A stretch of DNA of 64,000 nt, taken from Candidatus Poribacteria bacterium (GTDB taxonomy: Bacteria > Poribacteria > WGA-4E > PCPOR2b). Location: positions 4,384,001-4,448,000 of the forward strand of contig OZ244587.1 in NCBI GenBank assembly GCA_965218095.1. Reading direction: 5' to 3'. The position numbers were made by a program, and so were the translations under genes. The notes below the pieces were generated by a model. It ran no database searches. It was not told the DNA's origin and was given only the letters and a program-made list of their open reading frames with translations. This document shows, in pieces, positions 1 through 42,868 of this stretch. The first letter of the stretch is position 1. Each line of letters starts with the position of its first letter.

Positions 1-1367
1 GTGTCAATGACCCCAATTTCCTCCAGCATCTTCAGACCCAGGGACCGATCCTCCTTCAATTCGTACTCCGCCACAATCTCTGGAAACTGCTCCTTCAGGA
101 CGTCCGGCAGCGGAGACCTATCAGCGACCATCACCGGAGACGTCCGCTCTGCCATCTGGTCTCGGTCCATAATCAGGCTGAGTGCCTTCTGGAATTTGGG
201 ATGGGTGAACAGCCACCGCAGGCTTTCGTCCGGATGATCGAAATTCAGCCACAGGGCATAGAACCGACTGACCTCGGGAAACAGGAGTAACCGGATATTG
301 GCTCGTGCCTCATTTTGCTTAATCAGCCCCGCCTCCATCATACTAGATGGAAAGCCCCCCAGATCAATAGCTATCTCCCCGGAAATAAGCCCCAGCGCGA
401 CCTCGCTCCCACTGGTACTCTGCTTAAATAAAAAACGGTCAAAATAGGGCAACTGCTGTCCTTTGCGGTCCACTTTCCAGTAATAAGGGTTGCGTTCACA
501 GACCAACTTGTCGCCGAGAACCCCAACTGTGACCCACGGCGCTAGAACCGCCGGTCTCTGCTTGGGCTTGGGCATCCGCGCCCCCTGCCAGTCAGCGAGG
601 GTCGCTTCCGGGTTGTACGTGGGGTGGACCTTTACCATTTCATGTTTCGGCAGAATGTAGAACACCGGCCCCTCTCCGGGGACAAACATGTCTGCAATCA
701 GCGTGGGATGCGGTTGGGGCATCACAATCTTGAAGGTGTAATCGTCAATCTTCCCCATCTCGGTGGCACCACCTATGGGAAGCATGCGTCGGATTAAGAT
801 ACTATGAGGATTGACCAAATCGTCGTTGAGGATAACATCATAGTAGGTGAACAAGATGTCGTCAACGGTGAAAGGAACACCGTCAGACCACTTGACCCCC
901 TGGCGCAGATAAACGGTAATCACTCTGCCGTCCTCGGAGAACTCCCAACTCTCGGCCAGGTCCGGCTCCAGTACAGGCTCTTCATCAAGGCTCCAGATTG
1001 CCAGGCTCTGAAAGAATGCGCCTTGCGTTCTGTTTCCCTGTCCCACAATATATACATTCATTGGATAATCAATCCCCACGAAGATGTTGTGAGCCAGAAT
1101 GTCGCTGTAAGCGCCAATCTCGGGGGCTTTTGAAACCAGGGGGTTTGTGGGGAGGCGCTCCTCGACTGGGGGGAGCTTGCCAGCCCGGACTCGTTCAGCC
1201 AACATCGGTGCTTCGCTAAACTGCGTGATTACCTCGACTGTAGGCGGCTCCGCTGGTGGAGGGGGCTCCGTCGCCGGTTGGTCGCAGCCCGACAGCACTA
1301 ACAACATGATCATGATAGTGCTGACCAACAGCATCAGCCAAAGGTAGTGAGCGAGAATGGTTTTCAT
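1..1367 (-). CDS. ABC transporter family-5 substrate-binding lipoprotein, 3' end outside the window
   Basis: Read manually: ATG at 1367 (MKTILAHYLWLMLLVS...LSGCDQP lipobox). Colinear paralog of 1518-3530 (EPDLAESWEFSEDG, KWSDGVPFTVDD, ERNPYYWKVD). Confidence 0.85.
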   Translation of the reverse strand, partial: MKTILAHYLWLMLLVSTIMIMLLVLSGCDQPATEPPPPAEPPTVEVITQFSEAPMLAERVRAGKLPPVEERLPTNPLVSKAPEIGAYSDILAHNIFVGIDYPMNVYIVGQGNRTQGAFFQSLAIWSLDEEPVLEPDLAESWEFSEDGRVITVYLRQGVKWSDGVPFTVDDILFTYYDVILNDDLVNPHSILIRRMLPIGGATEMGKIDDYTFKIVMPQPHPTLIADMFVPGEGPVFYILPKHEMVKVHPTYNPEATLADWQGARMPKPKQRPAVLAPWVTVGVLGDKLVCERNPYYWKVDRKGQQLPYFDRFLFKQSTSGSEVALGLISGEIAIDLGGFPSSMMEAGLIKQNEARANIRLLLFPEVSRFYALWLNFDHPDESLRWLFTHPKFQKALSLIMDRDQMAERTSPVMVADRSPLPDVLKEQFPEIVAEYELKEDRSLGLKMLEEIGVID

Positions 1368-1517
1368 ATAATTCTTCGCTGTGGGAAGGAAACCACGACT
1401 CCTATCGATTAACTATCAGTGCATCACAAACCACATCTCTCCAAAATTGCAGAGCTAGACGGAAGTATAATCAAAAAAGTTGAGTGGAAAGGAAGGACAT
1501 TAAATTCCTTCCATAAG

Positions 1518-3530
1518 TCACTTCATCTTATACCATTCCCAGATGCGGCCATGCACAAAACCGTTCCAACTATAGAAAATATGCGGACCCTTGTGCTGGC
1601 TGAGGTGCGGGTGATACACCCGCGGGTTGTTGCCGATGTCCTTTCGGAAGACCGTAAACGCTCGGACACCTCCCATCGGGATTGTCCCCCGCCACCCGTC
1701 CCGGCCAATAAGGTGGGCAATCTGCCGGAGCGCGGTTTCCTCCTCAATCACCCCCGCCTCGTATTCGTCCACAAGACGGAGCCATTCTACCTGCCAAGGC
1801 AGGGGATGTGTCGCGCCGGTTTTTCGCTGGAACGAAGGCAGGTCATGCAGCATTACGGGCAGCACGCTGACGGGCAGTCGGTCCCGGTCCAAACAATACA
1901 TTATTCCGTGCCCGAAGCCGGGGGATTTAATGTACATATCGAAATTCCCGGGGCCGGTGATGGTGTCGTTCATGAGTTGCTCGTTCAGCGCGTCGAGTCT
2001 CGCGTCGAAACCCATATCTCTCAATTGTTCGACGAGGTCTTCCCCGCTCCGGACACGGCTAATATCGTGAACCGCGACCACAATCGTGAAACCCACCGGT
2101 TTGCCCGATTCGGGGACGCTAGGTGGAAATTCTCTCCAGCCATCGCTGTCCGTGTCAACGACCCCAATCTCCTCCAGCAGCGTGAGACCCAGGGGTCGAT
2201 CGTCCTTCAATTCATATTTCGCAGCGAGCTCTGGGAACCGCTCTTTCAAGGTATCCGGCAGCAGGGACCTATCGGCGACCATCATCGCCCCCGTTCGCTC
2301 CGCCATCTGGTCTCGGTCCATAATCAAGCTGAGTGCTTCTTGGAACTTCGGATTTGTGAACAGCCACCGCAGATTTTCGTCGGGATGATCGAAATTCAGC
2401 CACAGGGCATGGATGCGATTGACTTCGGGAAAGATGAGCAGCTTGAGATTGGCTCGTTTCTCATTTTGCTTAACGAGCCCCGCCTCCATCATACACGCGC
2501 CGCCTATATCGGCAGTGATCTCTCCTGAGATGAGCCCCAGCGCTACCTCGCTTCCACTGGCACTCAGCTTAAATAAGAATCGGTCAAAATAAGGCAACTG
2601 CTGTCCCCGACGGTCCACTTTCCAGTAGTAAGGGTTGCGTTCGCACACCAGCTTGTCGCCAAGGATCCCAACCGTAATCCATGGGGCAAGCACCGCCCAT
2701 GGGGCAAGCACCGCCGGTCTCTGCTCAGGCTTGGGCATCCGAGCCCCTTGCCAGTCGGCGAGGGTCGCTTCGGGATTGTATTTGGGATGGACCTTTATCA
2801 TTTCATGTTTCGGAAGAATGTGGAACCCTGTCGTCGCCCCGGGTACAAACAGGTCTTCAATCAGGATGGGATGCGGTTGGGTCATGACGATCTTGAAAGT
2901 ATAGTCGTTGATTTTCACCATCTCGGTGTCGCCGCCGATGGCAAGAAGGCGTCGGATTCCGGTACTTTGCGGGTTGACCAAATCGTTATTGTGGATGACA
3001 TCGTAGTACATGAACAGAATGTCGTTGACGGTGAACGGCACGCCGTCAGACCACTTGCCCCCCGGACGGAGATGAACTGTAATCACTTTCCCGTCGTCGG
3101 AGAACTCCCAACTCTCCGCCAGGTCTGGCTCCAGGACGGACTCTTCATTGAGGCTCCAAATCGCTAGGCTTTGAAAGAATGTGTGTTGCGTTCTGTTTGC
3201 CTGTCCCACAAGATACAAATTCATCGGATAATCAATTCCCTCGAAGATGTTGTGAGCCAGGACGTCGCTGTAAGACCCAATCTCGGGGGCTTTTGAGACG
3301 ACGGGGTTGGCGGGGAGACGCTCCTCAACGGGCGGGAGCTTGCCGGCCTGAACCCGTTCGGCGAGCATGGGGGCTTCGCTAAACTGCGTGGTCGCCTCAA
3401 TTGTAGCCGGTTCCACTGGTGGAGGGCCTTCTGTCGTCGGTTGGTCACAGCCTGACAGCCCGAACAACAGCATCACAATGCTGCTGCACAGCAACATTGG
3501 CCAACGGGAGTGAGTGAGATTGGATTTCAA
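1518..3530 (-). CDS. ABC transporter family-5 substrate-binding lipoprotein
   Basis: LSGC lipobox and the motifs GKLPPVEERLP, PDLAESWEFS, KWSDGVPFT, RNPYYWKVD. The TTG start at 3530 is chosen by alignment to the neighbouring paralog (the track starts at 3635). Confidence 0.88.
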   Translation of the reverse strand: MKSNLTHSRWPMLLCSSIVMLLFGLSGCDQPTTEGPPPVEPATIEATTQFSEAPMLAERVQAGKLPPVEERLPANPVVSKAPEIGSYSDVLAHNIFEGIDYPMNLYLVGQANRTQHTFFQSLAIWSLNEESVLEPDLAESWEFSDDGKVITVHLRPGGKWSDGVPFTVNDILFMYYDVIHNNDLVNPQSTGIRRLLAIGGDTEMVKINDYTFKIVMTQPHPILIEDLFVPGATTGFHILPKHEMIKVHPKYNPEATLADWQGARMPKPEQRPAVLAPWAVLAPWITVGILGDKLVCERNPYYWKVDRRGQQLPYFDRFLFKLSASGSEVALGLISGEITADIGGACMMEAGLVKQNEKRANLKLLIFPEVNRIHALWLNFDHPDENLRWLFTNPKFQEALSLIMDRDQMAERTGAMMVADRSLLPDTLKERFPELAAKYELKDDRPLGLTLLEEIGVVDTDSDGWREFPPSVPESGKPVGFTIVVAVHDISRVRSGEDLVEQLRDMGFDARLDALNEQLMNDTITGPGNFDMYIKSPGFGHGIMYCLDRDRLPVSVLPVMLHDLPSFQRKTGATHPLPWQVEWLRLVDEYEAGVIEEETALRQIAHLIGRDGWRGTIPMGGVRAFTVFRKDIGNNPRVYHPHLSQHKGPHIFYSWNGFVHGRIWEWYKMK

Positions 3531-3648
3531 TCTGTTTTTCCTTTGCTTGCTTGCGCGTTTAACAATTTGGTGAGATCCAGAGCGTTTCTGCCAGGATAGG
3601 TAAATTGTATCACACTTCTCACAAACTGTAAACATTGAATGTCTGGTG

Positions 3649-3773
3649 TAGGGGCATTTAATTATCGAGATTCTTCACTTCGTTCAGAATGACAGATTCA
3701 GTCATCCTGAGGCTTTGCGAAGGATCTCAATCATGATTCTCTGTAGGCTGATTGGAGAATTAAATAGCCCCAC
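3649..3773. repeat. MITE-like element with internal REP-like inverted pair
   Basis: Ends GGGGCATTTAATT and AATTAAATAGCCCC. TCTGGTG direct repeat at 3642-3648 and 3774-3780. Internal GAGATTCTTC...GAATGAC and GTCATCCTGA...GAAGGATCTC. Confidence 0.6.
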
Positions 3774-3859
3774 TCTGGTGATAGGGTCATTCAGTTTTCG
3801 GTTTTTGACCTGTCCCCTGGACTGACCTCTCTGTGGCATACTTTGCGTCCTTACCTGCT

Positions 3860-4810
3860 TTACCTCCTTTCACGTTTCATACGCCTCCGCCTGATTTGGC
3901 GTGTCATTTTCATTTGCCATTTCGGATCCGGTTGCGTTTTCCACCGATTGTGCACCCAGAGCCACTGACCAGGATAGTGTCGAATATACTTTTCAAGGAT
4001 TTTCAGGATGCGCGCGGCATTGGTCTGTATATCCTGTTCGAGCTCGCCCGATATTTCCAGGTCAATCGCTGGGGTGATTAGCACGCGATGGCGGTCATCT
4101 GGCTGACGAACATCCATCGACAGAAGGATTGATGCGCCCGTTTTGAGGGCAAGCATCGCAGGCCCACGGACAGCGGAAGCTGGCTTCCCAAAAAAATTGA
4201 CGAAAACGCCTTCCCGCCCTGCATTCTGGTCTGCGAAAAATCCGACAGCAAAATTCTCCTTGAGGGCGCGCAGAGTGCTTCTGACTGCTTGCTTCCGGGT
4301 AATCAACTCTAAACTCAGGCGCTCTCGATATTTGGAGGCAAGCGTATTGAGGTATCTGTTTCTCAAAGGGAAAGCGATTGCCTTTGCGCGATTCGGGATG
4401 AGTACCCCATAGACGAGGGCGAGGAGTTCCCAATTCCCGAAATGGGGAAGAAACACGATGACACCTTTGCCCCGATCCAACGCCTGTATCAGGTTCTCTT
4501 TTCCCTCGACGGTCACTTCTTCCCAGATATTGTCAAAGTTCAATTTAGGAAAACGGAGAAATTCGATTGCCGTTTTTCCCAGATTTCGGAAACTCTCCCG
4601 ACAGATTCGCCCTCGCTCCTCCGCTGACTTCTCATCACCAAACACAATTTGCAGGTTTTCTAAGGCAATTCGACGGCGTTTCTTGAGGGCAAGATAGAGG
4701 AGGTATCCCAGACCGCCCCCTAGCATCAAGGCAAGTTGTTTGGGAAGCCAGCAGACGAATACGCCAAATATACGGACGATAACAGCAAGTAGCCAATCAA
4801 TAATTAACAT
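3860..4810 (-). CDS. lpxL: Lipid A lauroyl/myristoyl acyltransferase (LpxL/HtrB family)
   Basis: N-terminal TM segment, HFGNWE, DQNAG, VNFFG, PGQWLWVHNRWK. Confidence 0.88.
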   Translation of the reverse strand: MLIIDWLLAVIVRIFGVFVCWLPKQLALMLGGGLGYLLYLALKKRRRIALENLQIVFGDEKSAEERGRICRESFRNLGKTAIEFLRFPKLNFDNIWEEVTVEGKENLIQALDRGKGVIVFLPHFGNWELLALVYGVLIPNRAKAIAFPLRNRYLNTLASKYRERLSLELITRKQAVRSTLRALKENFAVGFFADQNAGREGVFVNFFGKPASAVRGPAMLALKTGASILLSMDVRQPDDRHRVLITPAIDLEISGELEQDIQTNAARILKILEKYIRHYPGQWLWVHNRWKTQPDPKWQMKMTRQIRRRRMKRERR

Positions 4811-4834
4811 TTTCGATGAACCACTTTTTCTCTC

Positions 4835-5122
4835 TTATCCCGCAAGCGCATCGGCTTTCTTCGCCAACTCAAAATCGGACGTGCTAATTCCATCGGCGTC
4901 GTGCGTCATGAGATCAATTGTCACGCGGTTATAAACGTTAAACCACTCCGGATGATGGTTCATCGATTCCGCAACCAGGGCAACGCGCGTCATAAAACCG
5001 AAGGCTTCTATAAACGAGTCGAACTGAAATTGCTTGTGCAGTTTGCCGTTTTCGACTGTCCAGCCCGACAGCTCTGCAAGTTGGGCGCTAATTTCTGCAT
5101 CGGTCAGTTTTTTGACTGCCAT
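4835..5122 (-). CDS. phhB: Pterin-4-alpha-carbinolamine dehydratase
   Basis: AESMNHHPEWFNVYNRV...THDADG signature, 95 aa. Confidence 0.93.
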   Translation of the reverse strand: MAVKKLTDAEISAQLAELSGWTVENGKLHKQFQFDSFIEAFGFMTRVALVAESMNHHPEWFNVYNRVTIDLMTHDADGISTSDFELAKKADALAG

Positions 5123-5148
5123 TTCATTTTCTCCTTAAAAATTGGGTC

Positions 5149-5434
5149 ATTTTAACTTGACTTTGTTTGAGATTAAAAGAGATAATCGGCAGATCCACTG
5201 GTGGCTTGCCCCCCGGCCCCTCTCAATCCCCCCAACTTTGGGGGGAAGGGAGGATCGCAAAAACTCCTGAAGTTCCGGTGCTTCGCACCGAGAATCCACG
5301 ATGTGAAGCATCCCGATCTAAAGATCGGGATGCTTTGGGGAATTGTTGGGGGCCGGGGGGCAATGTAACAAAGTCATTTTAACTTTCTTGATTTTGCATT
5401 GTATTGGGATCTCTGGATAAAGTCAAGTTAAAAT
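5149..5434. repeat. MITE-like element
   Basis: Perfect 16-bp inverted ends ATTTTAACTTGACTTT (5149-5164) and AAAGTCAAGTTAAAAT (5419-5434). Nested palindromes CCCCCGGCCCC/GGGGCCGGGGG and GCATCCCGATC/GATCGGGATGC. Confidence 0.65.
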
Positions 5435-5513
5435 TTTAACGGAATAGAAATTTACAAAGCAACGAGAGAATTGATGGATTTGGCAATCTATCGGGAGTAG
5501 TAAAATGTGTAAA

Positions 5514-7036
5514 GTGCGTTCCTGTGCAGCATGATGTAATAGGGGTTAAAATCCCCTGACGATAACTTGCAATCGTAAGCCTAACCTTAACTGCGTTGCC
5601 TGAAAAGGCAAGGCGGAAAGCAAAGGGAAACGGCAAATGCCTGCAAGGGAATGTAGACCCTCAGAAGGCATGTCAGGCTAAGAACGTCATGGCTAAAACG
5701 AAAGTTGAACTAGTGTAAGCTTCGTCATTTTAGATCAGGTGAATCTACGAGGGGAAGACTGAAGAACTCCCCAACTACAGCCTGTAGACAAAAGTCAATG
5801 TGGCAAGGATAACGTTTTTCACATACGTTATCAAGGAAGGTGTTTTGTGTTTATGCCTTCTAGGTTCTGTTGACATTTCAACGGAGCCATATAAGAGTGG
5901 AGACAAAGCTGAGAAATCCAAAATAACGGACAGCTAGCTTCTCAAACCGAGAGAAGATACGACGATACCATTTTATCTTGTTGATGAAACATTCAACCCG
6001 ATGTCTCTCTTTGTATAAGTGTTTGCCATACGTTCTTTGGTCAACACGATGACTTTTGGGCGGTATCACCGCAATCGCTCCATTCGCCTCAATAACGGCG
6101 ATAAAAGCGTCCGAATCGTACCCCTTGTCTCCAATCACATATTCACTGTTATATCCGATTATCAACCCTTCCGCCTCAGTTATGTCATGTCTCTGACCGG
6201 GGGTCAGATGTATTCTTAGGGGATTGCCTAGTCCGTCAACTGTGATGTGATTTTTTGTACTGAAACCGCCCCGAGACCGACCTAATGCTTGGTTTTCAGT
6301 GCCACTGTTTTTTTAAGGCGCCAGCTTTTTAAGGCACCCGCCGCAGACGGGTGAGCAGATGGTACTGTCCACAATAAGCGACTCCATATCGGGGTCAGAG
6401 GCGAAGTGGGGGTGCATCTGTGTGAAGATACCTTTGTCGCACCATCGAGCAAACCGCTTGTAGCGGGTGTTCCATTTGCCATAGGTGTCTGGTAGAATCC
6501 GCCATTGAGCCCCGCTACGAGTCACCCACAGGACGGCTTCGACGAAGCGGCGTGTAGCAGCTTCGTCGCCAACATAGATGGTGGGACAGCTTAGAAGAAA
6601 CCGGTATATCTTATTCCATTGTTCATCAGGTAAGGTTATTGGCGTCATTCTTCTATTATGCCACAACCTTATACTCAAATGTCAACAGAACCTAGCAAGT
6701 CGAATGCCATCGGGGTATAGTCAGAGCCTAAAACGTTCACGACGTACACCTTGTGAGAACAGGAAAGTCCCTAAGTTCCTGTCTCAGGAATAAGGGAAAG
6801 GAGATTCGATAGGCTTATTATTAAGCCAAGCCGAATCAGAGTCATGGTTTTGAAAGGATTCTGAAATAGGTTTACCGCTACGGAGATAATCAGGCGTAAA
6901 AACCTGTCCACCGAGCAGATTAGATATTTATCTAAAGTTTAATCACCGTTTATGACTAGGCAAGCCGTGCGCGGTGAAAGTCGCACGCACGGTTTAGAAG
7001 CAGGGAAAATTCCGCAAGGAATCTACCTATGCTTAC
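5514..7036 (+). ncRNA. ORF-less group II intron (IIB-like), copy 1, about 691 nt after removing the inserted IS5
   Basis: 5' GTGCG. Domain V AAGCCGTGCGCGGTGAAAGTCGCACGCACGGTTT (6962-6995) with AGC triad and GAAA loop. Domain VI ends CCTATGCTTAC. Domain I closing stem TTCCTGT/ACAGGAA (6759-6765). Colinear with 42125-42839. Confidence 0.93.
5863..6692 (-). mobile_element. IS5-family insertion sequence (IS427-like, two-frame transposase), copy 1, degenerate
   Basis: TIRs GGTTCTGTTGACATTT/AAATGTCAACAGAACC in a C-TA-G target. orfA 6313-6678 (WVTRSGAQWRILP...GKWNTRYKRFARW) and orfB 5878-6165 (GDKGYDSD, YKERHRVECFINKIK). Small indels relative to copy 2. Confidence 0.93.
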
Positions 7037-7143
7037 CCATCCCGTTGACCAATACAAACCTTTGTAAATTCCTAAGAGGGGTAGGAGTATAGATGAAACC
7101 CTATCATGAAAAGGACGTTCCCAAAGTGTAGGAGGAATCGATA

Positions 7144-7281
7144 ATGAAACCGAAACGCAGACCCAAAACATTCGCGGGAAATGTGACCCAAAACCTGAAT
7201 CGACGAAAGCAAGTCGAGGCGATGAAGAAGCAGTTCTTACAAGGTGCTCGAAAACATCAAAGTCAAAACTCCAAACCTTAG
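7144..7281 (+). CDS. Small basic protein (45 aa), not in the ORF track
   Basis: GGAGG RBS upstream of ATG. MKPKRRPKTFAGNVTQNLNRRKQVEAMKKQFLQGARKHQSQNSKP. Stops just before the RBS of the next gene. Confidence 0.5.
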   Translation: MKPKRRPKTFAGNVTQNLNRRKQVEAMKKQFLQGARKHQSQNSKP

Positions 7282-7303
7282 TCTGTCAAGAAAGGAGATT
7301 GGG

Positions 7304-8098
7304 GTGAAGGAAGAACTCGACATTGCCATACAAGCTGCTAAGGAAGCGGGCAAAATCGTAATGGCATATTATCGGAGCAACTATGATGTTCGCGATAAAA
7401 GCCCGAACAACCCCGTCACAACTGCGGATTTGGCAGCCAATCGTCAGATTAGAGAGATAATCCGTCATGCTTTCCCTGACGACGGTTGGCTCTCTGAGGA
7501 GACGAAAGATTCTCCGGATCGATTGGCAAAATCCCGCGTATGGGTCATCGATCCAATTGACGGTACGGAGGAATTCATCGAAGGCTTACCCGAATTTGCC
7601 GTTTCGATCGCCTTCGTAATTGATGGGGCGCCAATCGTTGGCGTGCTGCACAATCCGGCAACAGCGGAGTTCTTTTATGCAAAGGCTGGCACCGGCGCAT
7701 TCTGCAACGGCAAACCGATTCACTGCTCATCATGCGAAACGCTCGAAAAGGCATCCATGCTGGTTAGCCAAACAGAACACCGAAAAGGGTTGTTAGCAGG
7801 ACTTATTTCGCTTGTTTCGGAGATCCGATACATCGGCAGCGTTGCCTACAAATTAGGGCGACTTGCGGCAGGCACGAGCGACCTCTATATCACCGTCCGT
7901 CCGAAAAATGAGTGGGATTTCTGCGCCGGTGATCTTATCCTGCGTGAAGCCGGCGGGGTCCTGTGGGATAAAGCAGGCCAGTCCATGCGGTATAACAAAG
8001 AGATCGTTAAGCAACCGACAGGGCTGTTTGCTGGCAACGCAACCATCGTAAAAAAGATAATCGATGCCTACAGGGAACTTATACCCGTTCAGGTTTAA
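7304..8098 (+). CDS. cysQ: Inositol monophosphatase / 3'(2'),5'-bisphosphate nucleotidase (CysQ-like)
   Basis: PVTTADL, LSEE, WVIDPIDGT, EWDFCAG. GTG at 7304 follows AAGGAG. Confidence 0.8.
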   Translation: MKEELDIAIQAAKEAGKIVMAYYRSNYDVRDKSPNNPVTTADLAANRQIREIIRHAFPDDGWLSEETKDSPDRLAKSRVWVIDPIDGTEEFIEGLPEFAVSIAFVIDGAPIVGVLHNPATAEFFYAKAGTGAFCNGKPIHCSSCETLEKASMLVSQTEHRKGLLAGLISLVSEIRYIGSVAYKLGRLAAGTSDLYITVRPKNEWDFCAGDLILREAGGVLWDKAGQSMRYNKEIVKQPTGLFAGNATIVKKIIDAYRELIPVQV

Positions 8099-8217
8099 AA
8101 TTGCCGATTAAAAGGAAGAGAAGGAGGGAATGGAAGGAAAAGGACAAAGGGAATCCTTTCTTTTCAGGCGTGCGAAAACTGTACTAAAGAGAACCTTCCG
8201 AAGGTTTATGTTCGCGT

Positions 8218-9522
8218 TTAGAGTAACTCCTGAAGGTATTGCACACGCGTATGGTGGCGCAACTTGCGAAGGGCTTCGTCCTCAATCTGACGTACCCTTT
8301 CCCGGCTAATGCCGAGTTGCCGTCCAATCTCAGCGAGGGTATATTCCGTGCCATCAGTTAAGCCGTACCGGAGTTTAACCACAAGGGTTTCACGGGGCGC
8401 TAATGTGTTCAGCACTTTTTCAAGCGACTCTTTTTCTGAGTTACAGAGCAATTCATCCTCAGGGGTTACCTGTGAGTCATCAGCCAGTAAGTCAGAAATT
8501 GTCGCATCGGGTGAAGATTCGCTCAATGGCGAATCCAGCGAAATCGTGCCCTTGGTGCTTTGGAGAATTTCGATAACACGGGTTTCAGACATCTCCACCG
8601 CTTCAGCAATCTCTTTGATGCCCGGTTCACGCTCAAGATCTCTGGCGAGTTTGCTCTGTGCTTGCTTGATAGATCGCCGTGTTTCTCCAACGTAACAGGG
8701 GATGCGAATCGTCTGGCTCTGCTGATCTAATGCCCGCTTAATTGCTTGCATGATCCACCATGTTGCATAAGTGCTGAAACGGTACCCTCTTTGGAGATCG
8801 AATTTTTCCACCGCCTTCATCAAACCAACACTTCCCTCTTGCATCAGATCAAGGAAAGAAAGCGATGACTTGTTGAAATTATGTTGTTTGGCGATACTTG
8901 CGACAAGCAGAAGGTTCGCCTCAACGATTTTCAACTTCGCATCTTGAATGATTTGGATAGCGTCGTGTAAATCCGCCCATAGTTTTGCAAGGCGTTCACA
9001 CTCCTCAATGCGATGGCTTAACGGCGTAGTTCCCTCCACTTCAATGCGCTTTTGGTAAGCCTTGATTGCCTTTTGAATTTGTTCCAAAAGTGTAGCGATA
9101 TACATTGGACTCCACCAAATGCTCTGGGTTTCCTTCTGTTTGGCGCCGCGTCGTCGATTGGCTTTGGGGCGCACCTCTTCTAAAATAGAGGGAGGAAGTT
9201 GATCTAATAACGCTGTAATCTTTTGCTTTCCTTCTTCAAATTGTTGAAACAGTTTAACCTCTTCCTTAGGTGTGAGCAAAGGAGTACGGGCGATTTCCTG
9301 AAGATAAGAAAATGCTTCATCTCGAGTGCCATCAGCCACATCGCCACGTCGTCGAAAGGAAGATATTAGATTACCTTCCGTTGTGTCTTCCTTGATCTCC
9401 TCTTCATCATGTTCCTCGGATTCATCAGTAGGTAATACCGACGGAAACTCACCGTCGTCGAACTCAAGCTCGCCTATCGGCTCGTCAACCCCACTATGCG
9501 TGAATTTGCGTTCTTTTCCCAT
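8218..9522 (-). CDS. RpoD/SigA-family sigma-70 factor (no clear region 1.1)
   Basis: [65 protein letters not shown]. Confidence 0.92.
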
Positions 9523-9645
9523 TTTTTGTTCACCTCCATTCTGCTAAATCTTGCTGAATCTTACGAAAATATCACAAAAACCCATAAGCCTCCTGCTATT
9601 TATTGGTTTAATTCAAACAATGAAACATGATATGTTATAATACAT

Positions 9646-9774
9646 TAGGAGTTACGCACTTCCGTTAAGCAAATCCTGCCATACCTGAATCTTGCATGGT
9701 GAATCCTGATCAAGGTACAAGATTCAAAATGCAGATAAATTGTCGAATGATTGAGACCAACTGCGTAACTTCTA
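9646..9774. mobile_element. MITE, TAGGASTTACGCA-end family
   Basis: TIRs TAGGAGTTACGCA (9646-9658) and TGCGTAACTTCTA (9762-9774). 6-bp direct repeat ATACAT at 9640-9645 and 9775-9780. Non-coding. Confidence 0.8.
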
Positions 9775-9805
9775 ATACATATTACTCATCAACTTGGAGG
9801 TCATT

Positions 9806-10342
9806 ATGAATCAACTCACCAAAGCTGATGTTCTCAGGTGCCTTCAGCGGGGCGAATCATTTGTTGGAGAAGATTTGACAGATATTGACTTATCTGGGGC
9901 ATCTGCTGATTTGACTGAAGTAAACTTCAATGATGCGAATCTTTCCAACGCAAATTTTTCAGGGACAGTAATGAAAAGAGTTTTCCTCGTTGGCGCGAAT
10001 TTAACCGATGCCAATTTTGAAGGCGCAGACCTTGAAGGCGCATTTCTCAGCGGTGCGATTCTTTCCGGCACAAATTTCAGAGGCGCGAATTTACGCCGTG
10101 CCACTATTGGCGCTCCGCATTGGACTGTCCCGGATCCGTTTGGCAGCCTGACAAGTTTTGAAAATGCAAACCTCGAAGAGGCAATTTTTGGTGAAACTGT
10201 GATGAAGGGTGTTATACTGCTTGGCGCTAAATTGAAAGGCGCCTATTTATACGAAGTGGATCTTTCCGAAGCAGTGTACAAACCTTCAGACCTTGAAGGT
10301 GCTGTCATCAAAAAAGTGTTCCAAGAATCGATCTGGGATTGA
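9806..10342 (+). CDS. Pentapeptide repeat protein
   Basis: Repeated A(N/D)(L/F)xx units. ATG at 9806 follows GGAGG. Confidence 0.9.
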   Translation: MNQLTKADVLRCLQRGESFVGEDLTDIDLSGASADLTEVNFNDANLSNANFSGTVMKRVFLVGANLTDANFEGADLEGAFLSGAILSGTNFRGANLRRATIGAPHWTVPDPFGSLTSFENANLEEAIFGETVMKGVILLGAKLKGAYLYEVDLSEAVYKPSDLEGAVIKKVFQESIWD

Positions 10343-10515
10343 ACACTCACCAGAGATTCTGTTTTATCATTGGGTGTTGTGACTGTGTATTGGCAACACC
10401 CATTGCTAACGCGGCGCAGAATATATTTGACCATCATTGAGACGTTTATTCGCTCGATTAAGTTTACAAATAAGCTGCAAGAAAACTCCTATCCCTTAAT
10501 CTTGACGAATCGCGA

Positions 10516-12369
10516 TTATCGCACAGAGTCGCCGCTTAGCCGAAATTGCATCTGGCACAGCTTTCGGTATAGCCCACCCTTTTCTAACAACTCCTGATGT
10601 GTGCCGCTTTCGACGATTTCCCCATCGTTCAGGACAAGAATTCTGTCTGCATGAACGACGGTCGAAAGTCGGTGCGCAATAACAAAGGTTGTCCTTCCTT
10701 TCATCAGGTTTGCAAGGGAGGCTTGGACAAGAACCTCCGATTCGCTGTCGAGTGCTGAAGTGGCTTCATCAAGCACAAGAACGCGAGGGTCTTTCAAAAG
10801 GGCGCGTGCAATCGAGAGGCGTTGCTGCTGGCCACCTGATAACTTAACGCCCGATTCACCAATCTGCGTTTCATACCCTTTGGGCATTTGAATAACGAAA
10901 TCGTGCACATTCGCTTGTTGGGCGGCTTTAATTGCCCCTTCGCGTGTCGCTGCCGGTGCACCATACATGATGTTCTCCATCACGGTTCCATCAAATAGGA
11001 TCGTATCCTGTGGCACAATCGCGATCTGCTGCCTGAGGGTATCCAACGCCACTTTGGAGGCAGGAATCCCGTCAATTAGAATCTCGCCGGCATCCACTTC
11101 GTAGAAACGCGACAGCAAATTGAGTAACGTTGTTTTCCCACTTCCACTCGGACCGACCAGCGCGACAACTTCGCCCGGTTTGACATGAAAACTGATATGT
11201 TTTATGACCGGCTCGCGCTCGTATCCGAAGGAGACATCCCGGAATTTAACCTCGCCACGAACTGACGGTAGCTTCAGTTGTTTGTTGCGCTTGTGCGCCT
11301 CTTGCTCAAAATCGAGGACGTGGAAAATTCTTTCAGCAGAAGCGAGACTCTGTTGCAGGACATTGTTGAAGTATCCAATGGTTTTGATCGGCTTAAACAT
11401 CAGGCTGATTAGTGCAATATAACCGATGAACCAGCCGGTTGATAGCTCACCTTGAATAACCTGCCAACAGCCAAGCCCAAAAACGGTTGCGATACCGATC
11501 GCACTGATCAGCTCCACGAGCGGTGGCACCATCGCTGCAAGTCGCACACGCCGCATAGCAATGCGATACTGCCCCTTGTTTGTGGTGGCAAAGCGATCAC
11601 GTTCTACTTCCTCGGCAGTAAAACTCTTGATAATCTTGAGCCCGAAGATTGTCTCTTTCAGTTGCGAGGAGATATCCGCCATCCGCTGTTGGATTTCCGA
11701 ACTTGTGCCGCGGATACGTTGACCAAATCGGTTAATCAGATGGGCGAGCAATGGAAAAACAAGCAGCGCAAGCACCGTCATCTTGAAACTGTGGAATAGC
11801 ATGACTAAGACACAGACGGGGATGAAGACAGTTGCGCGAATGATGTTTGCCATCGATCCAATGGCATATTGCCATGTCCGGACATCATCTATGACGCGTG
11901 CCATCAAATCACCGGTCCGATACGCCGTCAGTACCCCCAAAGGCGCAAAAAGGATTCTTTCGTATAACTCGTTCCGAACTCGGGTTATCAATTGATGTCC
12001 AACACGCGACATTAAGTAATCGTTGCAGTAAGTAAATACCCCTTTAATCACGACGAGCGTAAGGAAGCCCGCCAATACCCAACCAACAAGTTTGAAGGCA
12101 CCCCTTGCATCTGTAATGGTAATTTCGACACCATCGAAAATGGTAATTTCGACACCATTGAAGGCCGTTTCAAAATGGAAATATTCAATCTGAATGGGCC
12201 CATCTTCAAAACGCCGGGTTTCAATCAGCTTGAGCGCATCAGTTGTATACACTAAAACGTGAACGTAGCCCATTTCGCAGAGGGCAATCACGAGCGCACA
12301 AACTAATGCCAATGCAATCGAACCGAGATACGGCGATAGATACTTTGCGAAACGTGAGAATGTGGACAT
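10516..12369 (-). CDS. ABC exporter, fused TMD-NBD (MsbA-like)
   Basis: Multiple TM helices, GPSGSGKT, LSGGQQQR, LVLDEATSALD, IAHRLST. Confidence 0.92.
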   Translation of the reverse strand: MSTFSRFAKYLSPYLGSIALALVCALVIALCEMGYVHVLVYTTDALKLIETRRFEDGPIQIEYFHFETAFNGVEITIFDGVEITITDARGAFKLVGWVLAGFLTLVVIKGVFTYCNDYLMSRVGHQLITRVRNELYERILFAPLGVLTAYRTGDLMARVIDDVRTWQYAIGSMANIIRATVFIPVCVLVMLFHSFKMTVLALLVFPLLAHLINRFGQRIRGTSSEIQQRMADISSQLKETIFGLKIIKSFTAEEVERDRFATTNKGQYRIAMRRVRLAAMVPPLVELISAIGIATVFGLGCWQVIQGELSTGWFIGYIALISLMFKPIKTIGYFNNVLQQSLASAERIFHVLDFEQEAHKRNKQLKLPSVRGEVKFRDVSFGYEREPVIKHISFHVKPGEVVALVGPSGSGKTTLLNLLSRFYEVDAGEILIDGIPASKVALDTLRQQIAIVPQDTILFDGTVMENIMYGAPAATREGAIKAAQQANVHDFVIQMPKGYETQIGESGVKLSGGQQQRLSIARALLKDPRVLVLDEATSALDSESEVLVQASLANLMKGRTTFVIAHRLSTVVHADRILVLNDGEIVESGTHQELLEKGGLYRKLCQMQFRLSGDSVR

Positions 12370-37522: not shown

Positions 37523-37611
37523 AGATATGCCTTCCTTTTCGTTTTCGATGAATTAAATGAGGGGTGTTTATAATTGAAATTGAGTCAGGATAAAGGTTAT
37601 AACTTGTGCTA

Positions 37612-38432
37612 GGTTCTGTTGACATTTCAAGGGAGCCATATAAGAGTGGAGACAAAGCTGAGAAATCCAAAATAACGGACAGCTAGCTTCTCAAACCGAG
37701 AGAAGATACGACGATACCATTTTATCTTGTTGATGAAACATTCAACCCGATGTCTCTCTTTGTAGTAAGTGTTTGTCATACGTTCTTTGGTCAACACGAT
37801 GACTTTTTGGCGGTATCACCGCAATCGCTCCATTCGCCTTGATAACGGCGATAAAAGCGTCCGAATCGTACCCCTTGTCTCCAATCACATATTCACTGTT
37901 ATATCCGATTATCAACCCTTCCGCCTCAGTTATGTCATGTCTCTGACCGGGGGTCAGATGTATTCTTAGGGGATTGCCTAGTTCGTCAACTGTGATGTGA
38001 TTTTTTGTACTGAAACCGCCCCGAGAGCGACCTAATGCTTGGTTTTCAGTCCCACCGTTTTTTTTAAGGCACCAGCCGCACACGGGTACGCTCGAATGAT
38101 TGTACTGTCAACAATAAGCGACTCGATATCGGGGTCAGAGGCGAAGTGGGGGTGCATCTGTGTGAAGATACCTTTGTCGCACCATCGAGCAAACCGCTTG
38201 TAGCGGGTGTTCCATTTGCCATAGGTGTCTGGTAGAATCCGCCATTGAGCGCCGCTACGAGTCACCCACAGGACGGCTTCGACGAAGCGGCGTGTAGCAG
38301 CTTCGTCGCCAACATAGATGGTGGGACAGCTAAGAAGAAACCGGTATATCTTATTCCATTGTTCATCAGGTAAGGTTATTGGCGTCATTCTTCTATTATG
38401 CCACAACCTTATACTCAAATGTCAACAGAACC
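37612..38432 (-). mobile_element. IS5-family insertion sequence, copy 2
   Basis: Same TIRs and C-TA-G target as 5863-6692, near-identical sequence. A-rich slippery site between orfA and orfB. orfB frameshifted near 37760. Confidence 0.93.
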
Positions 38433-38482
38433 TAGCACAAGTCGTAATCTTATCTAATTTTCAACAAAGAAAGGATTATAAC

Positions 38483-40508: not shown

Positions 40509-41940
40509 TTAGTCGGTGAAATCTGACATCTCCCACACCAGAATCGTTCCAGCCCATGACCCGGAGGCGAGTTTTGTGCCATCAGGCGAAAATGCCACCG
40601 ACATCAACCCGCGCCCATCTCCTCGAAATGTGTCGATATGTTTTCCCGTCTCGACCTCCCACAGTTCGACAGTGTTATTCGAACCCGAAACAAGCCTTGT
40701 GCCATCGGGTGAAAACGCCACCGACCAGACCCAATTCGTATGCCCCTCAAGTGTGGTGATATTTCTTTTCGTGTCAACGTCCCACAGTTTGACAGTTTTG
40801 TCCTCCGATCCCGAAGCGAGCTTCGGGCCATCGGGAGAGAATACCACAGCGTGCATCCAATCTGAATGCCCGGTGAGGAGCGCGACTTCACGAGTTGTCT
40901 TCACATCATAAAGCCAGACACCAATGTTACTTGCCACCACGATATATGCGCCATCAGGCGAAAACGCGATCACTCTGTCGCCCTGACTAATCGTCCCTTT
41001 TTCCAAGCGCGTTTTGGCTCCTTCGGGTAAATGCCACCTCCGATAATCTTGATAAGTCAGACCAGTCCGTGCATCGTCTCGCTCTTTCTGGGCAGCAACT
41101 TGCAACGCCATCTGACCGTCGCCGCGTCGATTGGGGGGAAGGGGGGCGCGGTCCAAAATGGGTGCGTTGATAATCTCAACCTTCGTCGCCGACTCTTCCG
41201 CATCAAGGTTATACGGTAGCTGAAATCGGAGCCCGTTTGTGAAACTTGAGCCGACAATCAGGGCAATCGTCACAGCGGTGGCGACGCCCTACGGAATCAG
41301 CGGTTGACCACGCGGGACAACCGGGGTGGGTTCAAAATTGCCAATTCGCTCCAGCAGTTTTCGGGTGAACGTTGGCGGCAGTTGGAAGCCTCCAAAAGTT
41401 TCCTGCATCATCTTCGTTATCTCCTCTCGTAAACGGAGGCGTGCGCGATAGAGCCGGTCTTTGATTGCACCTTGCGACGTGCCGATGAAACGTCCAATCT
41501 CCTCACAACTCAAGCCACCGAGATAGTGAAGCGTCAAGACGGTGCGTTGGCTTTCGGGCAAACTATCTAGCGCATCACGAATCTCTTGCCGTTGCTGTTC
41601 GTCGCGGTAATCCCGTTGGGCAATCGTCTCCATCTCATCGGTTTCCACGTTAGCCAGGGGGCACGTTGGCAGACGTTTTTTGCGGTGCCACATCAGGCAA
41701 CATCTCGATGCGATGACATAGAGCCAACCGGCGAAATGCACCGGGTTTCGGAGCGTCGCCAGTTTCTGATAGGCTTGGAGAAAGGCGTCCTGTGTCAATT
41801 CTTCGGCGGTGTGAAAATCACCGGTTTTGCGGTAGACAAGCGCGTGGACCGCACCTTATGTATTTATCCACCAGAAACCCAAACGCGGTCTCATCGCCCG
41901 CAAGCGTCCGTTTGATTAGTTCACCGTCACTGTGATTCAT
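40509..41940 (-). pseudogene. ECF sigma factor fused to WD40 repeats, disrupted
   Basis: ATG 41940 (LAGDETAFGFLVDKY), frameshift, TQDAFLQAY...FAGWLY...IKDRLYRAR, in-frame TAG 41289-41291, TM segment, then WHLPEGAKTRL and WD40 repeats. Confidence 0.85.
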
Positions 41941-42124
41941 CGCAGCACTCCCGTGATTAAATCGTTCCTTTTCGTCAAACAGCGGTGATACGCCTTCACT
42001 ATTTATGATGCACTCAGGAAGTGGATGGTCAGACTCTTTTTTAATTTCCTTCGGTTCCTAGCTCCTAGCCCCGCTCCCGTCAAGCCGGAGCGAGAAATCG
42101 TCCGCTTTCACAATCTAAAGTGCG

Positions 42125-42839
42125 GTGCGATTCTGCGTAGCAAAACATAATGTCGGTTAGATTCCGACTTGGAGAACTTACCTCCACAAACCTCACCTTA
42201 ACTGCGTTGCTGGAAACAGCAACGTCCAAAGCAAAGGGAAAAGGTGCATGGCTCGTAGGGAATGTAGACCCTATAGGTTGCCACATCAGGTTAGAATGAT
42301 ACGGCAAGGCGAAAGCCGAACTCATGGAAGTCTCGTGAAGTTTGAACAGGTGAATCTACAATCCTTAGCCTGTAGCCAAAAGGCATGAGCAAAGGATAAC
42401 ATCTCGCACTTATGTTATCTTGTAAGTCAGACTGCTCCGGGATAAAGTGAGTGCCTAAGTCATTGAGAATATATGTTTTGTGAGAGCAGAATAGTCCCCA
42501 TATCACCCCGATTTATCGGGGTGATATGGGAGAGGCGGACAGATAAGCCTGTCCAAGTCAAAACACAGAAATTGGGTTAAAATGGATTAAGGGAAAATGA
42601 GCGCAATATCGTGTGCCTACTCTTAAACACGGCGACTCGTCCCCAATGTTCCACAATACTTAAAAGTAAGTAGGGCTGAGATTGTCTTTCAGGATAATTA
42701 CCACAATCCAGACAGCCTAACGATTCTTTATCCGTTTACAAAGACAATCGGTAATTGACGGTGAAAGCCGTGTGCGGTGAAAGTCGCATGCACGGTTTGG
42801 AAGCAGGGAAAAATCCGTGAGGATTCTACCTATGCTTAC
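42125..42839 (+). ncRNA. ORF-less group II intron (IIB-like), copy 2, 715 nt, apparently intact
   Basis: GTGCG start. Domain I stem ATTCTGC/GCAGAAT (42486-42492). EBS1 CGCACTT (42405-42411) complements exon AAGTGCG (42118-42124). Domain V 42765-42798. Domain VI ends CCTATGCTTAC. Confidence 0.95.
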
Positions 42840-42868
42840 TAACTCCTAATGTAATTAGAAAATTGTCA

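What the first reader, a model, noticed from the sequence alone, without database searches (positions are those of the whole stretch)
5500..7036. Family of retargeted, RT-less mini group II introns with co-varying guide sequences
Seen: both introns keep the same scaffold (ACCTTAACTGCGTTGC, AAAGCAAAGGGAAA, AGGGAATGTAGACCCT, CAGGTGAATCTAC, domains V and VI) with compensatory stems (TTCCTGT/ACAGGAA versus ATTCTGC/GCAGAAT). Their guides differ and each matches its own flank in the same register. Copy 1: EBS1 TTCACA (5818-5823) versus exon TGTAAA (5/6), putative EBS2 TTTTAG (5728-5733) versus GTAAAA at -14..-9 (5/6). Copy 2: EBS1 6/6, putative EBS2 AGTTTG (42339-42344) versus CAATCT (5/6). Neither encodes an RT/maturase and both are intergenic. 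Inference: two diverged members within 37 kb suggest a genome-wide radiation of naturally reprogrammed ribozymes mobilised by one trans-acting RT. ORF-less bacterial introns are known, but I cannot tell whether this family has been described.
Basis: partly seen in the sequence, partly recalled or inferred. Interest (0 to 1): 0.82.

Follow-up and report, generated by a model that had tools for sequence, protein, structure and literature searches.

The report
Stranded RT-less group II intron family
The window holds two protein-less group II introns, one of them broken by an insertion sequence, from a large family of self-splicing-type retroelements whose guide sequences match their insertion sites but whose only reverse transcriptase gene in this genome is dead.

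Summary
Window 5514-7036 and 42125-42839 are two ORF-less group II (IIB-like) introns: GUGCG 5' ends, Rfam domain V/VI hits (52.9 and 63.5 bits), and a domain I closing stem with three compensatory changes.

The family has 15 strong domain-I copies and 23 domain V/VI hits in this genome. It occurs in 20 of 28 related genomes. EBS1 and EBS2 match each copy's own flank better than other copies' flanks (permutation p about 2e-4 and <=5e-5). The orthologous site of copy 2 is empty in four related genomes.

The single related RT/maturase gene in this genome carries a nonsense codon and a frameshift, and the copies differ by 4-34%. Here they are probably stranded relics.

The kind is known (Thermosynechococcus elongatus, PMC2882425), so this is a new member of a known kind. 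Two side results are less ordinary. A sub-lineage lands between Shine-Dalgarno sequence and start codon. Several related genomes hold near-identical RT-less copies but no RT.

The parts
5500..5513 (+). 5' exon target of copy 1: IBS2 (GTAAAA 5500-5505, core TAAAA 5501-5505) and IBS1 (TGTAAA 5508-5513)
   Evidence: Read. Pairs with EBS2 5/5 in the core and with EBS1 5/6.
5514..7036 (+). Group II intron copy 1 (copy 'G'), ORF-less, 1523 nt including an IS. Starts GTGCG and ends ...CTACCTATGCTTAC.
   Evidence: R1 149.9 bits. Closest relative is copy C at 88-96%.
5519..5525 (+). 5' strand of the domain I closing stem (TTCCTGT). Its partner ACAGGAA lies at 6759-6765.
   Evidence: 7/7 paired. The stem covaries across the family.
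5728..5733 (+). EBS2 of copy 1 (TTTTAG)
   Evidence: same alignment position as the EBS2 of all copies.
5818..5823 (+). EBS1 of copy 1 (TTCACA) in the loop of hairpin 5808-5835
5860..6695 (-). IS5-family insertion sequence interrupting copy 1 after the domain II hairpin. It has 19-nt perfect terminal inverted repeats and CTAG at both ends. Transposase is in two frames: 6313-6678 and 5878-6165.
   Evidence: IR. (DUF4096, DDE_Tnp_1_2). (126 hits of >=750 nt in the genome). Uninterrupted copies C and K read ...CTTTAG/CTTCTAG|CAAGTCG at this point.
6960..7036 (+). Domains V and VI of copy 1
   Evidence: Rfam RF00029, 52.9 bits, E 1.5e-7.
42111..42124 (+). 5' exon target of copy 2: IBS2 CAATCT (42111-42116) and IBS1 AAGTGCG (42118-42124)
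   Evidence: The same target motif ACAAnCTnAAGTGCG|TAAsTCCTAA flanks related copies in other genomes.
42125..42839 (+). Group II intron copy 2 (copy 'H'), ORF-less, 715 nt, uninterrupted
   Evidence: R1 132 bits. 95% identical to a copy at another locus of related genome G014. In an alignment of 5 copies of this lineage, 201 predicted pairs include 11 with compensatory changes, and domain VI is invariant.
42339..42344 (+). EBS2 of copy 2 (AGTTTG)
   Evidence: The A/T variant at its third base tracks the T/A variant in IBS2 in relatives L146 and L139.
42405..42411 (+). EBS1 of copy 2 (CGCACTT) in the loop of hairpin GGATAACAT/ATGTTATC
   Evidence: 6/6; 7/7 with the extra T.
42763..42839 (+). 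Domains V and VI of copy 2
   Evidence: Rfam RF00029, 63.5 bits, E 3.9e-10.

Best explanation
Both elements are ORF-less derivatives of endonuclease-type mobile group IIB introns. The RT-bearing form, intact in related genomes, encodes RVT_N + RT + maturase (GIIM) + HNH in domain IV. In the short copies that ORF is missing, leaving a ribozyme of about 690-800 nt.

Such a ribozyme cannot make its own protein. It must be spliced and copied into DNA by the protein of a related intron acting in trans. This dependence is inferred by analogy with T. elongatus.

Where a copy lands is set by base pairing of two intron loops with the DNA just upstream of the insertion point: EBS1 with positions -6..-1 and EBS2 with -13..-9. 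This is shown by covariation. Changes in those loops created sub-lineages with new targets.

Copy 2 entered its intergenic site after this lineage split from the neighbouring genus, where the orthologous site is empty. It still has an intact catalytic core.

Copy 1 sits in the leader of a small-ORF/inositol-monophosphatase gene cluster on the same strand. It was later split by an IS5-family element and can no longer fold as one RNA.

In this genome the only related RT/maturase gene (in copy B) is a pseudogene and all copies are diverged. The family here is therefore most likely no longer mobile. Whether copy 2 still splices is open.
For: Group II identity:
- Rfam D5/D6 hits, GUGCG 5' ends and ...AC 3' ends.
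- The domain I stem covaries.
- 11 compensated pairs of 201 in 5 aligned copies of the copy-2 lineage, including one pair in domain V.

ORF-less state:
- No RT by ORF listing.
- tblastn with the family's RT, using the copy B halves and 5 intact RTs from relatives, hits only copy B, a remnant in copy D and a 30-39 aa remnant near 403,200.

Parent form:
- ORFs of 583-602 aa in 5 relatives.
- The one tested has RVT_N, RVT_1, GIIM and HNH.
- Best solved relative is 6me0_C 'Maturase reverse transcriptase', E 1.2e-91.

Guide pairing over 14 copies of this genome:
- EBS2 pairs 5/5 with its own flank in 8 copies at a fixed register, and in 10 if a 1-nt shift is allowed. Mean own 4.0 versus other 2.3, p<=5e-5.
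- EBS1 mean own 4.7 versus other 3.5, p=2e-4.
- Relatives add covarying pairs: TTAGG/CCTAA versus TTGGG/CCCAA, TACGC/GCGTA, GGATA/TATCC, TCTCC/GGAGA.

Mobility:
- The site of copy 2 is empty in G009, G013, G003 and G007, with both flanks aligned.
- The site of copy 1 is probably empty in G005.

Decay:
- Copy B's RT has a TGA and a +1 frameshift.
- One GIIM hit and no other intron RT in the genome.
- IS elements interrupt copies G, C, K, P, J and Q.
- Pairwise identity of the copies is 66-96%.
Against: Several copies fit their flanks poorly:
- EBS1 of J, K and L scores <=3.5 of 6.
- EBS2 of C scores 2/5 and of P 3/5.
These copies have either drifted or inserted with poor pairing.

Dependence on a protein in trans is inferred, not shown. 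Some ORF-less introns self-splice: C.te.I1 is cited in PMC4424553.

The catalytic core of the copy-2 lineage is strongly conserved. Domain VI is identical in 5 copies that are 84-95% identical overall. Copy 2 is 95% identical to a copy in another genus, while the orthologous flanks are 83-87% identical. This points to continuing constraint or recent transfer, which sits uneasily with 'pure relic'.

The RT lesions rest on a single assembly. I could not check them against reads.
Confidence: 0.85

Rival explanations
1. The family is still active in this genome. Copy 2 and other intact ORF-less copies would be spliced, and perhaps mobilised, without a resident intact IEP. Possible routes are self-splicing, a host factor, a truncated product of the copy B ORF (its 374-aa C-terminal frame holds RT5-7, X, D and En), or an IEP on an unassembled replicon.
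For: - Domains V/VI and many helices of the copy-2 lineage are conserved, with compensatory changes.
- Related genome G038 has 7 R1 ribozyme hits. Three of its copies are 100% identical at different sites. G038 has no GIIM hit, no RVT_1 hit and only a 76-aa RT remnant with a stop.
- Ribozyme copies occur in 20 of 28 related genomes, but a related RT at E<=1e-40 occurs in only 7 of 28.
Against: - Within this genome no two copies at different sites are more than about 96% identical over a part, or 90% overall. That argues against recent movement here.
- At least 6 copies are IS-disrupted.
- Genes next to copies D and L carry in-frame stops.
- Identical copies in G038 could also come from gene conversion or very recent loss of the RT.
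Confidence: 0.2
2. The copies have been domesticated as cis-regulatory RNA. For example, copy 1 in the leader of the downstream small-ORF / inositol monophosphatase genes would control their expression.
For: Copy 1 lies on the same strand as, and 56 nt upstream of, a conserved SD-ATG (7093) and further ORFs. In this family other copies sit exactly at ribosome-binding sites.
Against: Copy 1 is split by an IS, and the homologous leader in G005 has no intron. Copy 2 is antisense to both neighbouring genes. Nothing shows regulation.
Confidence: 0.04
3. The EBS/flank matches are chance and the elements are immobile ancient repeats spread by DNA-level duplication.
For: Copy E and fragment Q share identical flanks, so at least one pair arose by segmental duplication. 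Short 5-6 nt matches are individually weak.
Against: - Permutation tests reject chance.
- 67 unique flanks were collected across genomes.
- Target motifs are conserved only over about 17 nt, with unrelated sequence beyond.
- Copy 2 has a precisely empty orthologous site.
Confidence: 0.01

Closest known systems
Thermosynechococcus elongatus TeI3/TeI4 group II intron families (Mohr et al. 2010, PMC2882425; abstract and passages read)
   Same: - Many related copies in one genome, most of them ORF-less.
- Families differ in EBS sequences and match their own sites.
- The elements are intertwined with IS elements.
- Mobilisation by an IEP in trans is the accepted mechanism there.
- The IEP of relatives here is closest, among solved structures, to 6me0_C. 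I recall, without checking, that this is the T. elongatus TeI4h protein.
   Different: - T. elongatus has 8 ORF-containing copies and 17 ORF-less ones, the ORF-less ones derived from a single deletion.
- Here the only IEP gene of the genome is a pseudogene and the copies are far more diverged (66-96%).
- The family spans at least 21 genomes of one bacterial family.
- ISs insert into the introns, rather than introns into ISs.
- I did not test whether all ORF-less copies here share one deletion.
Trichodesmium erythraeum dnaN ORF-less introns spliced by the RIR intron maturase (as summarised in PMC12584367, passage read)
   Same: ORF-less introns depend on the RT/maturase of a related ORF-carrying intron in the same genome.
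   Different: Those introns sit inside housekeeping genes and must splice. The two window copies are intergenic, and no intact maturase is present.
C.te.I1 of Clostridium tetani (as described in PMC4424553, passage read)
   Same: An ORF-less bacterial group II intron in a genome without an IEP gene. It is the only such exception the review knew of.
   Different: C.te.I1 is a single copy that self-splices in vitro. Here there are many copies per genome and several genomes, and self-splicing is untested.
Class C (IIC) introns that insert after terminators or at attC sites (PMC4424553)
   Same: An intron lineage specialised on a generic genomic signal rather than one homing site. This is an analogy for the Shine-Dalgarno/start-codon sub-lineage seen in this family.
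   Different: IIC introns lack EBS2 and an En domain and recognise a DNA hairpin. The family here has EBS2 and an HNH domain and reaches its signal by base pairing.

Membership tests
Group II intron ribozyme | Conserved 5' end GUGYG and 3' end AY | tested here: met
   GTGCG at 5514 and 42125...CTTAC at 7036 and 42839. The same holds at 13 full copies of this genome.
Group II intron ribozyme | Domain V hairpin with catalytic AGC, and domain VI with a bulged branch-point A | tested here: met
   RF00029 at 52.9 and 63.5 bits against a cut-off of 40, full model 1-77. A bulged A lies 8 nt from the 3' end, in CCTATGCTTAC (read).
Group II intron ribozyme | Domain I with EBS1 and EBS2 pairing to the 5' exon (IIA/IIB type) | tested here: met
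   Own-flank pairing exceeds other-flank pairing: p<=5e-5 for EBS2 and p=2e-4 for EBS1. Covarying pairs are seen in relatives.
Group II intron ribozyme | Six-domain secondary structure supported by covariation | tested here: inconclusive
   The domain I closing stem and several helices covary. Rfam D1-D4 model RF02012 reaches only 22.7 bits against a cut-off of 34. Tertiary contacts and domains II-IV were not mapped.
Group II intron ribozyme | Splicing by two transesterifications (lariat) | not testable with these tools
   Only assembled contigs of RNA runs were available. No junction could be assessed.
Mobile (IEP-encoding) group II intron retroelement | RT/maturase ORF in domain IV | tested here: not met
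   No RT ORF in either window copy. The ORF is present in relatives.
ORF-less intron family driven by an IEP in trans (T. elongatus type) | An intact related IEP gene in the same genome | tested here: not met
   The one related gene (copy B) has a TGA and a frameshift. One GIIM hit in the genome. The other RVT_1 hit, at 1,095,165, has no maturase domain.
ORF-less intron family driven by an IEP in trans (T. elongatus type) | Sub-families with diverged EBS that match their own sites | tested here: met
Class C (IIC) group II introns | No EBS2; insertion just after a terminator-like hairpin; IEP without an En domain | tested here: not met
   EBS2 is present and covaries. The IEP of relatives has HNH.
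IS5-family insertion sequence (the element inside copy 1) | DDE transposase of the IS4/IS5 type, terminal inverted repeats, short target duplication | tested here: met
   DUF4096 E 9.9e-21. DDE_Tnp_1_2 at 26.9 bits is just under its cut-off of 29.2. 19-nt perfect IRs with CTAG at both ends. 126 copies of >=750 nt in the genome.

The most novel reading that the evidence does not exclude
In this bacterial family (probably Candidatus Poribacteria) one intron lineage carries a pyrimidine-rich, anti-Shine-Dalgarno-like EBS2 (CCTTT, CCTCC, TCTCC, TTCCT). It therefore homes to ribosome-binding sites. The intron lands 7-9 nt downstream of the SD, between the SD and the start codon of ordinary genes, so translation of the host gene would require splicing. 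That would be a fourth generic target class for bacterial group II introns, beside homing sites, terminators and attC sites. In addition, ORF-less copies persist, and look recently copied, in genomes that hold no reverse transcriptase at all.
Probability: 0.5. Interest if true: 0.75.

Novelty: new member of a known kind. Interest (0 to 1): 0.5.

Why it matters

In this family of genomes, ribozyme-only copies are common: 0-23 per genome, present in 20 of 28 relatives. They outlast the RT genes, which are found in 7 of 28. That makes the group a natural series for studying how introns lose autonomy, a step in the proposed path from retroelement to spliceosomal-type intron.

The clear EBS2/IBS2 and EBS1/IBS1 covariation amounts to a natural retargeting table.

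The SD/start-codon sub-lineage, if confirmed, would link splicing directly to translation initiation in bacteria.

For the two window copies alone the result is ordinary: decayed members of a known kind.

Tried and rejected
Tried, without a usable answer:

(1) Evidence of splicing from public RNA. One search listed 24 runs, 8 on record as RNA. laid contigs of 3 sponge metatranscriptome runs and 1 other run on window 41700-43300.
- No contig joined 42124 to 42840.
- The joints listed lie inside the intron, mostly with sides under 31 nt, and probably come from other copies or organisms.
- Summed contig depth over the intron was 50-1300 in the RNA runs against 0-10 on the flanks. It was also raised in the other run (60-11,570 against about 25-40), because the sequence is repeated.
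- Contigs cannot show absence, strand or level, so this says nothing either way.

(2) The search for related loci with the C-terminal RT frame of copy B in genome contigs found no relative.

(3) The 16-mer scan of genome contigs gave 88 stretches, 80 of them listed. Most are single hits in unrelated taxa and are expected by chance. Only records titled Candidatus Poribacteria had more than one hit (10 of the 80 listed loci, from 5 records). I use this only as a hint to the host phylum.

(4) Rfam D1-D4 models stayed below threshold.

(5) RT-bearing relatives in the second bacterial family (f2) were examined for the SD pattern. None of 24 sites had it. Six or seven sit in a tRNA D-arm and about seven sit after TGTTATAAT. 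The SD pattern is therefore confined to family f1. My D5/D6 HMM found a 3' end for only 1 of these 24.

(7) Simon et al. 2008 (PMC2525955) is not held. Supplementary figures of PMC2882425, which show EBS/IBS tables and deletion breakpoints, could not be seen and may bear on the comparison.

Considered and rejected:
- Class IIC membership. EBS2 and HNH are present.
- The RT at genome position 1,095,165 as driver. It has RVT_1 only and no maturase domain.
- Sequencing error as the sole cause of the dead RT. There are two lesions and one is a substitution-type nonsense codon, but this remains unverified against reads.

Literature searches for an SD- or start-codon-targeting group II intron (passages) found none. 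That is no proof that none is in print.
Full report
WHAT IS AT THE COORDINATES

Rfam finds group II domain V/VI at window 6960-7036 (52.9 bits) and 42763-42839 (63.5 bits), and nothing else of that kind in the window. Upstream, GTGCG at 5514 and at 42125 opens two sequences that align at 77% mean column identity over domain I.

The stem TTCCTGT/ACAGGAA (5519-5525 / 6759-6765) corresponds to ATTCTGC/GCAGAAT (42130-42136 / 42487-42493), with three base pairs changed on both sides. Across copies from this and related genomes the same stem appears as ATTCTAA/TTAGAAT, TTTCCAA/TTGGAAA, CTTCGGT/ACCGAAG, CCTTTGC/GCAAGGG, CCCAAAT/GTTTGGG and others. In some rows of that call my sequence anchor missed the 3' strand, and those rows score low for that reason.

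Neither copy holds an RT ORF. Copy 2 is 715 nt and uninterrupted.

Copy 1 is 1523 nt because an IS sits in it. Perfect 19-nt inverted repeats lie at 5860-5878 and 6677-6695, with CTAG at each end. Two minus-strand ORFs match DUF4096 and a DDE transposase domain. The genome holds 126 matches of at least 750 nt. Uninterrupted relatives read straight through this point. Without it copy 1 is about 690 nt.

SURROUNDINGS

Copy 1 lies between a minus-strand pterin-4a-carbinolamine dehydratase gene (4835-5122) and, on its own strand, two small ORFs (from 7093 and 7144) and an inositol-monophosphatase-family gene (7244-8098).

Copy 2 lies between an ECF sigma factor gene (41289-41798, minus) and a 110-aa ORF (42869-43201, minus). 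It is antisense to both.

THE FAMILY IN THIS GENOME

The window is part of a single 6.35-Mb contig.
- RF00029 gives 24 matches at E<=0.01, 23 of them over the cut-off.
- An HMM of domain I gives 19 hits, 15 of them with E<=2e-76.
- A covariance model of the first 132 nt (R1) gives 17 hits.

I could pair 13 full introns, called A to M; G is copy 1 and H is copy 2. P and Q are 5' fragments, and Q shares its flank with E.

Sizes are 715-803 nt for A, E, H, L and M. The longer copies hold an IS:
- G: the IS5-family element.
- C, K and P: a roughly 940-bp IS that gave 37-40 BLAST hits in the genome.
- J and Q: a 1253-bp IS with an integrase-type transposase.
- F and I: a roughly 900-nt interior of unknown nature.
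- B: the RT ORF.
- D: an RT remnant.

Pairwise identity is 66-96%.

THE RT

The genome has one GIIM match and three RVT_1 matches. Two of these are the halves of the ORF in copy B; the third is a stand-alone RT with no maturase domain.

In copy B the reading frame runs ...LEKWHTP, then TGA, then continues in homology (SLTKIIKEMLKANIM...) for 26 codons. One extra base then shifts it at the conserved GTPQGG motif. tblastn with five intact RTs from relatives finds only copy B, the copy D remnant and a 33-39 aa remnant. So no intact group II IEP was found in this genome.

Relatives carry intact ORFs of 583-602 aa. The one scanned has RVT_N, RVT_1, GIIM and HNH. Its best solved relative is 6me0_C, E 1.2e-91.

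DO THE GUIDES MATCH THE FLANKS?

EBS1 is the loop of a conserved hairpin. EBS2 is the 5-mer that follows CGTNN and precedes N3-4 GGTGAATCTAC.

In 14 copies of this genome, EBS2 pairs 5 of 5 with positions -13..-9 of its own 5' exon in B, D, E, G, J, K, L and M. It pairs 4 of 5 in F and H, 5 of 5 with a 1-nt shift in A and I, 2 of 5 in C and 3 of 5 in P.

EBS1, taking the best of five registers, pairs 6 of 6 in B, E, H and I. It scores 5-5.5 in C, D, G and M, 4-4.5 in A, F and P, and 2-3.5 in J, K and L.

Dealing the flanks out at random among the introns reached the observed total:
- EBS2: in none of 20,000 permutations (p<=5e-5).
- EBS1: p=2e-4 for the best register and p=2e-3 for a fixed register.

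Sixty further loci from related genomes add independent cases:
- TTAGG with CCTAA versus TTGGG with CCCAA at the target TAACCYAAGTTGCTAG
- TACGC with GCGTA
- TCTTC with GAAGA
- ACTCC with GGAGT
- EBS1 matches of 7 or 8 in a row (L152, L159, L126)

In the copy-2 lineage, an A/T difference in EBS2 tracks a T/A difference in IBS2 in two of five copies. In two others, including copy 2 itself, it is crossed, leaving one mismatch.

WERE THEY MOBILE?

The flanks of copy 2 are conserved in the neighbouring genus at 83-87% identity. In G009, G013, G003 and G007 the two flanks abut with no intron. The junction there reads ...CACGATCTAAAATGCC|TAAATCC... and variants of it, which resembles the occupied target CACAATCTAAAGTGCG|TAACTCC.

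Copies 95% and 86% identical to copy 2 sit at unrelated loci in G014 and G018, with the same 17-nt target.

For copy 1, G005 has the first roughly 20 nt of the 3' exon and the downstream small ORFs, preceded by non-intron sequence. The 5' side is too diverged to align, so I call that site probably empty.

DISTRIBUTION

R1 matches 20 of 28 other genomes of the same family, with 0-23 copies each. None of the 4 genomes of genus g5 has a match.

The family's RT at E<=1e-40 is found in 7 of those 28, and in 35 of 176 genomes of the phylum, counting the window's own genome.

Only records titled Candidatus Poribacteria had repeated hits to a family 16-mer. Sponge metagenome runs hold the sequence. 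The host is therefore probably a sponge-associated poribacterium. This is inference at phylum level only.

MECHANISM AND STATE

Shown:
- Ribozyme features
- Absence of an ORF in both window copies
- Guide/target covariation
- Empty orthologous sites
- A dead RT gene
- IS disruption

Inferred from the T. elongatus work (PMC2882425, passages read): such copies are spliced and mobilised by a related IEP in trans.

Given the dead RT and the divergence of the copies, the family in this genome is most likely immobile now. Copy 1 is certainly broken.

Copy 2 keeps an intact core. In five copies of its lineage that are 84-95% identical, domain VI is invariant and 11 of 201 predicted pairs show compensatory change. 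The ribozyme has therefore been under constraint until recently. Whether it still splices I could not test (see Tried and rejected).

TWO THINGS BEYOND THE FINDING

First, many 5' exons are Shine-Dalgarno-like.

Among 67 unique insertion sites, 22 have GGAG, GAGG, AGGA or AAGG at -16..-6, against 9% of random positions (p=5e-8). Three of the 22 belong to the repeat-hairpin target.

Of the 52 sites with a mapped 3' end, 5 also have a start codon within -3..+5 of the junction that opens an ORF of at least 140 codons. The random expectation is 0.56% (p=1e-5). The random control used this genome only.

The five downstream ORFs are real genes whose Pfam domains begin at residues 2-15 in three cases: a short-chain dehydrogenase, a PhyH dioxygenase, a sulfatase, an M3 peptidase and a LamG-like protein.

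In this genome copy D reads AAGGAGAAGATT|intron|ATGAAG. Homologous genes in G006, G002 and G005, and a paralogue at window 60483-61539, read AGGAG-N6|ATG without an intron. The gene behind copy D has TAG where its homologues have ATG at codon 18.

The EBS2 of these copies (CCTTT, CCTTA, CCTCC, TCTCC, TTCCT) pairs with the SD core. That places the insertion point where start codons lie.

I found no description of such a target class:
- Searches found none.
- A 2015 review names three specificities only: homing sites, terminators and attC.

Neither window copy belongs to this class.

Second, G038 is a single-contig genome rated 97% complete. It has 7 ribozyme hits, of which six full copies were compared. 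Those six are 98.3-100% identical, and three of them are identical at three different sites. Yet G038 has no GIIM match, no RVT_1 match and only a 76-aa RT remnant with a stop. Either the RT was lost very recently, or it lies outside the assembly, or the copies are homogenised by gene conversion, or they move by other means.

VERDICT

The kind of element is already known from T. elongatus. The two window copies are decayed members of it in a new host group.

Noticed in passing
Genome copies D (1598536-1600607), K, B and L; related loci L122, L123, L135, L152, L163, L159, L176: A sub-lineage of the same intron family sits between the Shine-Dalgarno sequence and the start codon of ordinary genes, or splits or directly follows the ATG. 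Its EBS2 is complementary to the SD core. 5 of 52 sites pass a strict test against 0.56% of random positions.
   Followed up: yes
Related genome G038 (loci L128-L133, L222): Six ORF-less copies are 98.3-100% identical and lie at different sites sharing the target TAACCTAAGTTGCTAG. The single-contig genome has no RVT_1 or GIIM match and only a 76-aa RT remnant.
   Followed up: partly
window 45004-45263 (+): T-box leader, Rfam RF00230, 100.6 bits (cut-off 93). Not examined further.
   Followed up: no
window 37609-38435: A second copy of the IS5-family element that interrupts intron copy 1 (95% identical). The genome holds 126 matches of >=750 nt, plus at least two other multi-copy IS types.
   Followed up: partly
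window 6310-6341: A 16-nt tandem duplication (TTTTTAAGGCGCCAGC / TTTTTAAGGCACCCGC) lies inside the IS, at the junction of its two transposase frames. It could be a frameshift site or a lesion.
   Followed up: no
window 60483-61539 (+): A paralogue (71% DNA identity) of the oxidoreductase-like gene that carries intron D elsewhere in the genome. Here the gene has no intron and reads AGGAGATAAACA|ATG.
   Followed up: partly
Genome copy M (4704109-4703363, minus strand): The last 14 nt of the 5' exon (CTATCCAAAACGTT) nearly repeat the intron's own 3' end plus the first bases of the 3' exon. It looks as if copy M inserted next to the remnant of another copy's 3' splice site.
   Followed up: no
Loci L174-L180 and L144 (related genomes G040, G037): One ORF-less sub-family targets a repeated palindromic element, GGCATACGGAGTATGCC followed by TAC. 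The reverse complement of that element also lies just after another intron's 3' end.
   Followed up: no
Loci L192-L195, L200, L201 and L203-L209 (second bacterial family, f2): RT-bearing relatives of the intron sit in the D-arm of a tRNA gene (same site in 6 genomes), or a few bases after a TGTTATAAT promoter-like box (about 7 genomes).
   Followed up: partly
window 41289-41940 (-); genome copies D and L host genes: Several otherwise conserved genes carry in-frame stops or frame breaks. The ECF sigma factor is split into 41289-41798 and 41818-41940, and there are stops in the genes behind introns D and L. Together with the many ISs this suggests a pseudogene-rich genome or residual assembly errors.
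   Followed up: no
window 7093-7281 (+): Two small ORFs (12 and 45 aa) downstream of copy 1 are conserved in related genome G005 (L011), each preceded by its own SD. Function unknown.
   Followed up: no
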